A DNA stretch of 64,000 nt from the human T2T-CHM13v2.0 reference genome, Homo sapiens. The translations under genes were made by a program, and so were the position numbers. Within the stretch, counting starts at the first letter, position 1. Every line of letters starts with the position of its first letter. Positions 44,466 through 47,005 of the stretch are shown in pieces. The notes under the pieces are model-generated. The model was not told where the DNA came from. It searched no databases and saw only the letters and a program-made list of their open reading frames with translations. The stretch lies in the NCBI RefSeq assembly GCF_009914755.1, contig NC_060942.1. One strand, given 5' to 3'.

Positions 44466-44938
44466 TATCGTTAATGAAGGTGCCCCAGGGAAAAAGTGAA
44501 ACAAAAGAGACTTTCTGTCTCTGGTATGACACTTTCTGGATAGCTCTCCTTAAATATAGAGAAGCATAAGATATGAGAACAAAGAAATAAAGATTTGAGA
44601 ATAGATCATACTGATGTCTGGGTATGAGTTCAGCAAATAAACTGACCAGTAACAACAGATGGAAAGTCTAATGCGTTTTTAAGACTCAGTCTGAAAAAAT
44701 ACCCGTAAAGTTACATGATTATTTCAGCCTTACAGTCCTTGGACTCCCAACTTTCCACTGGCAAGACCTTAATTAAGAAAACTGTGAAGCCCTGATCCTG
44801 GCATATTCCACAACAGCCTCTTCAGACATGGCTATGGAACATCCTGAAAACCAGAAGAAACTCCCAAAGCCATAAAGAACAATGAACACAACACTAATCC
44901 CAGAGAGCACATTAGGCATTATCTGGTAGCTGATTTCT

Positions 44939-45152
44939 TTTTTTTTTTTTTTTTTTGTAAGGAACAGAAATTTATTTCTTACAGTTCTGGAGGCTGGGAG
45001 TTTCAAATCAAAGTACCAGGAGGTTAGGGCCCAGTCTCTCTGCTTCCAAGATGGTGCCTTAAATGCTGCATCCTCTGGAGGAGAACACCATGTCCTCGGG
45101 TGGCAGAGGGGCAGAAGAGAGAGAACCTACTCCTGCAAGCTTGCCTTTTTAA
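44939..45152 (-). mobile_element. SVA 3' transduction: MST/MLT1A-like LTR fragment (44957-45152) plus second poly(A) (T18, 44939-44956)
   Basis: Lies inside the SVA TSD pair; AGAAATTTATTTCTTACAGTTCTGGAGGCTGGGAG and TTCCAAGATGGTGCC are MST/MLT1A-type LTR motifs; AATAAA on the minus strand at 44976-44971. Confidence 0.9.
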
Positions 45153-46295
45153 TTTTTTTTTTTTTTTTTTTTTTTTTAGTATTTATTGATCATTCTTGGG
45201 TGTTTCTCGGAGAGGGGGATTTGGCAGGGTCATAGGACAATAGTGGAGGGAAGGTCAGCAGATAAACATGTGAACAAGGGTCTCTGGTTTTCCTAGGCAG
45301 AGGACCCTGCGGCCTTCCACAGTGTTTGTGTCCCTGGGTACTTGAGATTAGGGAGTGGTGATGACTCCTAACGAGCATGCTGCCTTCAAGCATCTGTTTA
45401 ACAAAGCACATCTTGCACCACCCTTAATCCATTTAACCCTGAGTGGACACAGCACATGTTTCAGAGAGCACGGGGTTTGGGGCAAGGTTATAGATTAACA
45501 GCATCCCAAGGCACAAGAATTTTTCTTAGTACAGAACAAAATGGAGTCTCCTACGTCTACTTCCCTCTACATAGACACAGCAACAATCTGATTTCTCTAT
45601 CTTTTCCCCACATTTCCCTTTTCTATTCGACAAAACTGCCATTGTCATCATGGCCCGTTCTCAATGAGCTGTTGGGTACACCTCCCAGACGGGGTGGCTG
45701 CCGGGCAGAGGGGCTCCTCACTTCCCAGACGGGGCGGCCAGGCAGAGGCGCCCCCACCTCCCGGACGGGGCGGCGGCCGGGCAGGGGCTGCCCCCCACCT
45801 CCCTCCCGGACGGGGCGGCTGGCCGGGCAGAGGCTGCAATCTCGGCACTTTGGGAGGCCAAGGCAGGCGGCTGGGAGGTGGAGGTTGTAGCGAGCCGAGA
45901 TCATGCCACTGCACTCCAGCCTGGGCAACATTGAGCACTGAGTGAGTGAGACTCCGTCTGCAATCCTGGCACCTCGGGAGGCCGAGGCTGGCAGATCACT
46001 CGCGGTTAGGAGCTGGAGACCAGCCCGGCCAACACAGCCAAACCCCGTCTCCACCAAAAAAATATGAAAACCAGTCAGGCGTGGCGGCGCGTGCCTGCAA
46101 TCCCAGGCACTCGGCAGCCTGAGGCAGGAGAATCAGGCAGGGAGGTTGCAGTGAGCCTAGATGGTGGCAGTACAGTCCAGCTTCGGCTCGGCATCAGAGG
46201 GAGACCGTGGAGAGAGAGGGAGAGGGAGAGGGAGACCGTGGGGAGAGGGAGAGGGAGACCGTGGGGAGAGGGGGAGGGAGAGGGAGAGGGAGAGC
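45153..46295 (-). mobile_element. Full-length SVA (older B/C-like): poly(A) 45153-45177, SINE-R ~45178-45680, VNTR ~45681-45831, Alu-like ~45832-46198, CCCTCT hexamer ~46199-46295
   Basis: All four SVA domains are visible; SINE-R variants GATAAACATGTGAAC, TATAGATTAACAGCATCC and AAAATGGAGTCTCC suggest a pre-D subfamily (recall); 17-bp TSD TCTGGTAGCTGATTTCT at 44922-44938 and 46296-46312. Confidence 0.97.
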
Positions 46296-47005
46296 TCTGG
46301 TAGCTGATTTCTACCATTCTGAAGGCTTGGGGAATCTTTGTAATGTCTACCCACCAAGATTTCAAGATCTCAGAATTCCTATGAATTCTGCTGGATATCT
46401 CCCATTCTTTCCCTTTCTGGAATGTGTTTTTGCTTTTATTGTATCCCATTTCCACAATGAAACACTAGGTGTCATGCGACTGAGGATATGCAGATACCTT
46501 GTCTTCTTATTTCATCTGTCTGAATCTAGAGATTATAGTATAATATGCAGAAACTTAGACTTTGAGCTTAAAGGAAGTGACTTGGTGAGACTTAGTTGGT
46601 TTTTGTTGGGGCATGTCACAATAAGGGAGCAAGAAAACATTTTTGTAACCAGAAGGGTCAACCGTCGCAGTGACAATTGTTTGTCAGTGAATATCCAGGT
46701 GTGGTCCCCTCACCCCAACCCCTGCATGGGCTATTCCCAGCCCCCTTGCTAGGAGCTATGTGTCTGTTTCTGGCCAATGCGCTGTAAACAGAAATGATGT
46801 GTATAACTCCTAGGCTAAAATATTTAAGAGCTAGTTTGCCATCCTTATGGTTCCTTCTCCTGTCAAACTAATTGTGTAGGCCTCCTGTTGGGATGAAGAA
46901 TCACCAAGATGAAAACAACCTGGATCCCCACACATAGGAAATCTTCCCTTGGATCTATAGTGGACATTGTAATACTCTATGGGAAAAATCCACACACTGT
47001 GGAAT

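What the first reader, a model, noticed from the sequence alone, without database searches (positions are those of the whole stretch)
44922..46312. SVA-mediated 3' transduction that used a MaLR LTR poly(A) signal
Seen: a perfect 17-bp TSD (TCTGGTAGCTGATTTCT, 44922-44938 and 46296-46312) encloses the SVA plus ~195 bp beyond its own poly(A) and a second poly(A) (T18). The extra piece is an MST/MLT1A-type LTR fragment in the SVA's orientation, with AATAAA (44976-44971) 14 nt before the second tail. Established: SVAs can read through their weak poly(A) site and transduce 3' flanks. Inference: the source SVA sits inside a MaLR LTR elsewhere in the genome, and its transcript ended at that LTR's poly(A) site. 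The fragment is therefore a barcode for the parent and any sibling copies.
Basis: partly seen in the sequence, partly recalled or inferred. Interest (0 to 1): 0.8.

Follow-up and report, generated by a model that had tools for sequence, protein, structure and literature searches.

The report
SVA carrying chr5 LTR flank; parent missing
This is an ordinary jumping-gene insertion (an SVA) that dragged along about 200 bases of a chromosome 5 LTR, and its only unusual point is that the parent SVA is absent from chromosome 5 in this genome.

Summary
A minus-strand, full-length SVA with a short VNTR is followed by A25, a 196-bp LTR fragment with AATAAA, and A18. A perfect 17-bp target-site duplication encloses the whole.

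The fragment has one near-identical match in this genome, at C5:77012817-77013012, with 1 mismatch. All other scored matches are 73-83% identical.

At chr5 the LTR runs on about 55 nt past the cleavage point with no poly(A). AATAAA sits at the same position in 19 of 28 paralogs, so it is the LTR family's own signal.

There is no SVA at chr5. The homology ends in the A-rich tail of an old Alu, at a TTTT/AA-type site. No SINE-R or VNTR match lies within 10 kb upstream. No sibling copy exists.

Best reading (0.8): a classic 3' transduction from a chr5 source SVA allele that is absent from this assembly, either lost or rare. Rival (about 0.12): a reverse-transcriptase template switch from an LTR-terminated chr5 RNA onto an SVA RNA tail.

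This is a known kind of event and the interest is low.

The parts
44922..44938 (.). Target-site duplication, the copy next to the terminal poly(A)
   Evidence: 17/17 identical to 46296-46312 (D7). Only 2 matches in the window against 0.03 expected.
44939..44956 (-). Terminal poly(A) of the whole insertion (T18 on the + strand)
   Evidence: Read directly. It is absent at the chr5 source, where the LTR continues.
44971..44976 (-). AATAAA poly(A) signal of the transduced LTR, 14-17 nt before the cleavage point
   Evidence: The hexamer is AATAAA at the homologous column in 19 of 28 paralogous LTR copies.
44957..45152 (-). Transduced fragment, the 3' part of a chr5 LTR. Homology extends to 45158.
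   Evidence: Matches G000:C5:77012817-77013012 at 99%, the only near-identical hit; the rest are 73-83%. Alignment shows 1 mismatch, at 44981. 26 of 28 paralogs share the chr18 base, so the chr5 base is the derived one.
45153..45177 (-). Internal A25: the SVA's own A-tail, whose last 6 A may instead come from the chr5 target site
   Evidence: TRF finds a pure T run of 25. chr5 shares TTTTTT after TTAA.
45178..45678 (-). SINE-R domain with the SVA's own AATAAA
   Evidence: 96-97% identical to other SVAs; 2514 first-look candidates, 40 scored. 91% identical to named SVA_D/E/F copies.
45679..45837 (-). Short VNTR, about 3-4 units of 37-40 nt
   Evidence: TRF: period 37, 3.2 copies. 38 of 39 other top full-length rows break at query 254-283 (window 45813-45842), mostly at 45832-45837, where their VNTRs go on.
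45838..46195 (-). Alu-like domain
   Evidence: (D4) and 40: 89% match to the 5' part of the named SVA_D on chr10.
46196..46295 (-). CCCTCT-type hexamer region with an extra 5' G abutting the TSD (full-length 5' end)
   Evidence: TRF period 6/23, sequence read. Untemplated 5' G is described for SVAs in PMC4859970 (passages).
46296..46312 (.). Target-site duplication, the copy next to the SVA 5' end

Best explanation
This is one L1-mediated retrotransposition event. A full-length SVA RNA read through its own AATAAA and continued about 200 nt into the flank of its parent copy. It was cleaved and polyadenylated at the native poly(A) site of an LTR in which that parent sat.

The parent sat on chr5 (T2T C5:~77.013 Mb, minus strand). 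It had inserted into the A-rich tail of an old Alu that itself lies inside the LTR. That parental SVA allele is not present in this assembly. It either never reached fixation and was lost, or it survives only as a rare allele.

Shown: the anatomy, the single chr5 origin, the direction chr5 to chr18, the use of the LTR's own signal, and the absence of an SVA at chr5. Inferred: that an SVA once sat at chr5.
For: 1. **One event.** One perfect 17-bp TSD encloses the SVA, A25, the LTR piece and A18. The SVA alone has no TSD of its own.
2. **L1 endonuclease-type target.** In element orientation the target reads GT/AGAAAT, i.e. 5'-TTCT/AC on the nicked strand. This fits the YYYY/R pattern described in PMC4859970.
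3. **Single origin.** The piece matches one other locus at 201/202. Every other scored match of the 40 scored (828 candidates) is at most 83% identical. It therefore cannot be an old resident LTR at chr18.
4. **Direction.** At chr5 the LTR continues about 55 nt to its ...GGACTAATACA end without a poly(A). Its 5' part lies beyond the Alu.
5. **Native signal.** AATAAA is the family's own signal, present in 19 of 28 paralogs.
6. **Insertion-site junction.** The chr5 junction reads ATT/AAAAAATTAAAAAGG, i.e. TTTT/AA, as expected for the insertion site of a source element.
7. **An A-tract separates the SVA from the piece**, as in read-through transductions.
8. **Precedent.** In PMC12593883 (passages and Table S8 read), 16% of transduction-bearing SVAs had no source SVA at the traced origin. 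[quoted passage not shown]
Against: - The defining expectation, an SVA directly upstream of the piece at the source locus, was tested and is not met in this assembly.
- No sibling with the same barcode or the same SVA body exists here to prove that a chr5 SVA lineage existed. Only 40 best candidates were scored in each search.
- The junction in an A6 run is equally what a microhomology-guided template switch would give.
- Other human assemblies and ape genomes could not be searched.
Confidence: 0.8

Rival explanations
1. Template-switch chimera. L1 reverse transcriptase first primed on a polyadenylated chr5 RNA that ended at the LTR's poly(A) site. It copied about 200 nt up to the A6 run of the Alu tail, then jumped onto the poly(A) tail of an unrelated SVA RNA and copied it to its cap. 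Under this reading no SVA ever sat at chr5.
For: - There is no SVA at or within 10 kb upstream of the chr5 origin, and there are no siblings.
- The junction lies in an A/T-only run. PMC4859970 says U6-chimera junctions are typically T-rich.
- PMC12593883 proposes one SVA-CKS1B chimera made this way.
Against: - Such cases are rare: 1 proposed among 217 transduction-bearing SVAs in PMC12593883. That case was inferred from the absence of a poly(A) between the parts, whereas here A25 separates them.
- It needs an independent minus-strand Pol II transcript across this spot. By my recalled gene map (not a tool result) the site lies in an intron of the plus-strand gene IQGAP2, about GRCh38 chr5:76.48 Mb. 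That coordinate comes from the +530 kb offset measured.
- The missing source is also expected under read-through, in 16% of cases.
Confidence: 0.12
2. Two separate insertions at chr18. Either an older LTR fragment or retrocopy was later hit by an SVA at its edge, or the SVA landed next to a resident LTR.
For: None beyond the adjacency itself.
Against: - The 17-bp TSD flanks the composite. The SVA alone has no duplicated flank.
- The fragment is 201/202 identical to chr5, while family copies differ by 17-27%.
- The fragment ends in A18 exactly 14-17 nt after AATAAA.
- The left flank is single-copy in the genome, 1 candidate and 1 match, itself, so this is not a duplicated block.
Confidence: 0.02

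Closest known systems
SVA 3' transduction: read-through of the SVA poly(A) signal to a downstream signal (Ostertag 2003 and Xing 2006 as cited in PMC12593883 and PMC4859970; I read passages of those two papers only)
   Same: - SVA, then an internal A-tract, then a unique flank, then AATAAA, then a second poly(A), all inside one TSD.
- The flank maps to one other locus.
- The 196-202 bp length is within the reported range (3' transduction median 258 bp; PMC12593883).
   Different: The traced origin carries no SVA in this assembly. This puts it with the reported minority whose source was 'lost or at low allele frequency'.
SVA-CKS1B template-switch chimera (PMC12593883) and U6/L1 chimeras (PMC4859970)
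   Same: Two RNAs' worth of sequence inside one TSD, with a junction in an A/T-rich run.
   Different: Here a 25-nt A-tract lies between the parts. The 3' part also starts at a perfect endonuclease-type site. The CKS1B case was called because no poly(A) separated the parts.
SVA subfamilies D, E and F (named copies located through the TSDs of PMC12593883 Table S8)
   Same: The same domain order, and alignable over the whole SINE-R.
   Different: - SINE-R is only 90.5-91.1% identical to the three named copies, against 94.0-97.6% to its 20 nearest unnamed rows (19 distinct SVAs).
- It shares 12 of the 13 group-specific columns with those neighbours.
- It therefore belongs to another subfamily, probably an older one (A-C by recall). 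I could not name it.

Membership tests
L1-mediated (TPRT) insertion | Target-site duplication flanking the insert | tested here: met
   17/17 bp. 2 matches in the window against 0.03 expected.
L1-mediated (TPRT) insertion | 3' poly(A) tail abutting the TSD, and an endonuclease-type target (YYYY/RR-like) | tested here: met
   A18 at 44939-44956. The target reads TTCT/AC. The pattern is as described in PMC4859970.
SVA retrotransposon | Hexamer, Alu-like, VNTR and SINE-R domains in order, with a terminal AATAAA | tested here: met
   Alignment to named SVA_D/E/F copies.
SVA 3' transduction | Non-SVA sequence between the SVA A-tail and a second poly(A), inside the TSD, preceded by a poly(A) signal | tested here: met
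   44957-45152, with AATAAA at 44971-44976.
SVA 3' transduction | The transduced sequence maps to a unique origin that continues without a poly(A) | tested here: met
   C5:77012817-77013012, 1 mismatch. The LTR continues about 55 nt.
SVA 3' transduction | A full-length SVA lies directly upstream of the origin in the same orientation | tested here: not met
   No SVA at the junction. Only Alu-type matches (71-92%, SVA query positions 96-467) in C5:77011317-77022999 and C5:76993000-77002999. This is one assembly only; C5:77003000-77011316 was not fetched.
SVA 3' transduction | The source element's TSD is recognisable at the start of the transduced piece | not testable with these tools
   It needs the filled source allele. 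Only the candidate site ATT/AAAAAATTAAAAAGG can be named.
   No repeat library was available. The name rests on recall.
   828 first-look candidates, 38 of 38 scored paralogs at 73-83%. Family homology is bounded at L002 ~2060 and ~1449. AATAAA in 19 of 28 copies, about 75 nt from the shared ...GACTAAGACA end.
Template-switch chimera | No poly(A) between the two RNA-derived parts (the criterion used in PMC12593883) | tested here: not met
   A25 lies between the parts. A jump onto a poly(A) tail would, however, also leave an A-tract, so this is weak evidence.

The most novel reading that the evidence does not exclude
The chr18 element may be the only surviving descendant, a molecular fossil, of an SVA of a pre-D subfamily that once sat in an Alu tail at chr5:~77.01 Mb (T2T). 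In the boldest version that source still segregates at low frequency in humans as an unrecognised, transduction-competent old-subfamily SVA. Alternatively the element is a true template-switch chimera with an LTR-terminated antisense RNA.
Probability: 0.12. Interest if true: 0.35.

Novelty: new member of a known kind. Interest (0 to 1): 0.15.

Why it matters
It matters little beyond bookkeeping. SVA 3' transductions are a textbook phenomenon and are catalogued genome-wide.

**What this case adds**
- A clean, fully traced example that uses an LTR's own poly(A) site.
- Evidence that the parent allele is not in T2T-CHM13. This illustrates that source elements are often lost.
- A precise chr5 site to genotype in pangenomes.

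**Practical note.** The SVA lies in sense orientation in a CCDC178 intron, since the gene is on the minus strand by the hub's table. It places two sense AATAAA signals there. No effect on the transcript was tested.

Tried and rejected
**Tool and paper dead ends**
- Xing 2006 (PMC1693794), Damert 2009 (PMC2775593) and Hancks & Kazazian 2010 (PMC2945828) are not held. I therefore could not check whether this chr18 element is already in their lists.
- Supplement 1 of PMC12593883 holds neither a 20-nt motif of the transduced piece (either strand) nor 'CCDC178'. Its Table S8 of 55 sources has none at 5q13-q14. That dataset covers only offspring absent from GRCh38.
- A search for 'SVA' plus 'CCDC178' found 5 papers (4 listed); the 4 listed are unrelated by title and abstract.
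- The NAR 2023 supplement (a PDF) was listed but not read.

**Checks that gave nothing**
- *Paralogous empty site for chr18:* the left flank is single-copy, so none exists.

**Subfamily naming**
- Only D, E and F copies could be located, through published TSDs.
- The element is none of these. A, B or C could not be told apart.

**Dating is inconclusive**
- There is 1 difference in 202 bp between chr5 and chr18, 0 in the TSD pair, and both tails are pure. This looks young.
- The SINE-R has 5 private substitutions and a 2-bp deletion in 502 bp.
- It has lost at least as many CpGs as its relatives (69 against 27 summed over 20 rows). This looks old.
- By my own Poisson estimate, anything from recent to about 10 My is compatible.

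Full report
**1. Observation**

TCTGGTAGCTGATTTCT stands at 44922-44938 and 46296-46312 (family D7). These are the only two matches in the 64-kb window even at two mismatches. The expected number is 0.03, and 0 of 100 shuffles reach two.

Between the two copies, read on the minus strand, lie the following:
- an extra G and about 100 nt of CCCTCT-type hexamers (46295-46196)
- an Alu-like part (to about 45838)
- a very short VNTR (45837-45679; period 37, 3.2 copies)
- a SINE-R ending in AATAAATACT (45678-45178)
- a pure A25 (45177-45153)
- 196 nt of non-SVA sequence (45152-44957) containing AATAAA (44976-44971)
- a pure A18 (44956-44939)

The SVA alone has no duplicated flank. The target reads 5'-TTCT/AC on the nicked strand, a YYYY/R site of the kind listed for L1-mediated insertions in PMC4859970 (passages). 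The same review describes untemplated 5' G on full-length SVAs.

**2. Where the extra piece comes from**

I searched the window's own genome with 44957-45152. There were 828 first-look candidates, and 40 were scored.
- One hit was the window itself.
- One was a 99% match over all 196 bases, at C5:77012817-77013012.
- The remaining 38 were 73-83% identical.

The pairwise alignment shows one mismatch, at window 44981. Identity runs on through TTAA and six T into the 'SVA tail', and through three T at the other end. The cleavage point is therefore 14-17 nt after AATAAA.

At the mismatch, 26 of 28 paralogous copies carry the chr18 base and none carries the chr5 base. The one change therefore happened on chr5, and the chr18 copy is unchanged.

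A fragment that is 201/202 identical to one locus, in a family whose copies differ by about 20%, cannot be an old resident of chr18.

**3. Anatomy of the chr5 locus (L002)**

The repeat is in the same (minus) sense. Family homology is bounded at L002 ~2060 and ~1449, where it ends in ...GGACTAATACA. A 5'-truncated sense Alu (~1924-1697) interrupts the unit.
- **Downstream.** The LTR continues about 55 nt beyond the point where chr18 has its A18, with no poly(A). The direction is therefore chr5 to chr18.
- **Poly(A) signal.** The hexamer at the homologous column is AATAAA in 19 of 28 paralogs (L003-L030). The other nine show one- or few-base variants. This is the family's own signal, with a U5-like end after it.
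- **Naming.** The name MaLR/MST/MLT1 is recalled. No repeat library was available to test it.
- **Upstream.** In sense orientation the homology stops inside the Alu's degenerate A-tail: ...AAAATT/AAAAAATTAAAAAGGCAAGC. That is a perfect TTTT/AA endonuclease site on the other strand.

**4. The parent is not there**

Directly upstream of the piece at chr5 there is Alu, not SVA. I ran BLAST of the whole chr18 SVA against three chr5 loci (L002, L066, L067), which together cover two spans:
- C5:77011317-77022999 (L002 and L067), the 10 kb upstream in sense orientation
- C5:76993000-77002999 (L066)

It gave only Alu-type matches to the Alu-like part (SVA query positions 96-467, 71-92% identity). Nothing matched the VNTR or SINE-R. 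C5:77003000-77011316, which is downstream in sense orientation, was not fetched.

There are also no siblings.
- No third copy of the barcode exists.
- The best other SINE-R is 97.2% identical by BLAST.
- Of 39 other top-scoring junction rows, 38 break where the short VNTR meets the Alu-like part. The single exception is an 88% match on chr11.

Each of these searches scored only the best 40 of about 2500 candidates. A true sibling would have ranked first.

**5. What kind of SVA it is**

I located three named copies in this genome through the TSDs printed in Table S8 of PMC12593883: SVA_D (chr10), SVA_E (chr2) and SVA_F (chr9).
- The window's SINE-R is 91.1, 90.5 and 90.5% identical to them. They are 94-95% identical to each other.
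- It is 94.0-97.6% identical to its 20 nearest unnamed rows. These are 19 distinct elements, because L032 and L050 are the same SVA. Two of 22 rows were dropped because they aligned over fewer than 490 bp.
- At 13 columns D, E and F agree while at least 16 of the 20 neighbours differ. The window sides with the neighbours at 12 of these.

So it belongs to another subfamily, probably an older one. 'A-C' is recall, and I could not name it.

Against the 20 rows it has 5 private substitutions and one private 2-bp deletion in 502 bp. It has lost at least as many CpGs as they have (summed 69 against 27).

Age is unresolved. The body looks old. The transduced piece (1 change in 2 x 202 bp), the TSD pair (0 in 34 bp) and the pure tails look young. 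By my own Poisson estimate, anything from recent to about 10 My fits.

**6. Mechanism**

Best reading (0.8):
- A chr5 SVA sat in the Alu tail inside the LTR.
- It was transcribed through its own AATAAA for about 200 nt and was polyadenylated at the LTR's native site.
- L1 proteins inserted that RNA at chr18.
- The chr5 allele is absent from this assembly.

This situation is in print. In PMC12593883 (abstract, passages and Table S8 read), 84% of transduction-bearing non-reference SVAs were traced to 55 sources. [quoted passage not shown] If the element is millions of years old, loss is likelier than a still-segregating allele.

Rival (about 0.12): a template switch from an LTR-terminated chr5 RNA onto the poly(A) tail of an SVA RNA.
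- *For it.* It explains the empty chr5 site and the junction in an A-run.
- *Rarity.* Such events are rare. The same paper proposes one among 217, inferred from the lack of a poly(A) between the parts, whereas here there is A25.
- *Transcript needed.* It requires an independent minus-strand transcript.
- *Gene context.* Using the +530 kb offset between T2T and GRCh38 measured at an SVA_F on chr5, the site is near GRCh38 chr5:76.48 Mb. From memory, not from any tool, this lies in an intron of the plus-strand gene IQGAP2.

Rejected outright:
- Two independent insertions, or a resident LTR, are excluded by the TSD and the 201/202 identity.
- A duplicated block is excluded because the left flank is single-copy.

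**7. Comparison and verdict**

This is a member of the well-described class of SVA 3' transductions. It fails one membership row in this assembly, namely an SVA at the source, in a way the literature already documents. It is not a new kind of thing.

I found no printed mention of this particular element. The genome-wide catalogues most likely to list it (Xing 2006, Damert 2009) were not held.

The element lies in sense orientation in a CCDC178 intron, going by the hub's table. No effect on the gene was tested.

Interest is low.

Noticed in passing
L002:2225-2580 (C5:~77013541-77013896): A second LTR-like repeat of the same general type and orientation, with its own AATAAA-like 'agaaatttatttctc' on the + strand. 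It lies about 170 bp beyond the 5' end of the source LTR. The two could be LTRs of one old element or two solo LTRs.
   Followed up: no
window 44957-45138: The hub's list of NCBI-masked stretches starts at 45139. The transduced LTR fragment is therefore left unmasked, although it belongs to a family with at least 828 first-look matches in the genome.
   Followed up: partly
L056 (C2:~194168600, SVA_E of Table S8): Its SINE-R shows a run of A-to-G differences private to it at alignment positions 9, 11, 20, 22 and 68. This looks like a clustered, editing-like pattern.
   Followed up: no
G000:C5:142604866-142607895: The two TSD copies of the SVA_F listed at GRCh38 chr5:142074661-142077352 (2.69 kb) lie 3.0 kb apart in this assembly. 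This suggests a VNTR or hexamer length difference between the two references.
   Followed up: no
G000:C10:81402342 and G000:C2:194168591: For the SVA_D (chr10) and SVA_E (chr2) sources of Table S8, only one exact copy of the published TSD is found in this genome. The second copy must differ by at least one base or be shorter than printed.
   Followed up: no
G000:C11:79739108-79739444: This is the only other SVA whose VNTR is short enough to align across the whole SINE-R/VNTR/Alu-like junction query, at 88% identity. It is another short-VNTR SVA and not a sibling.
   Followed up: no
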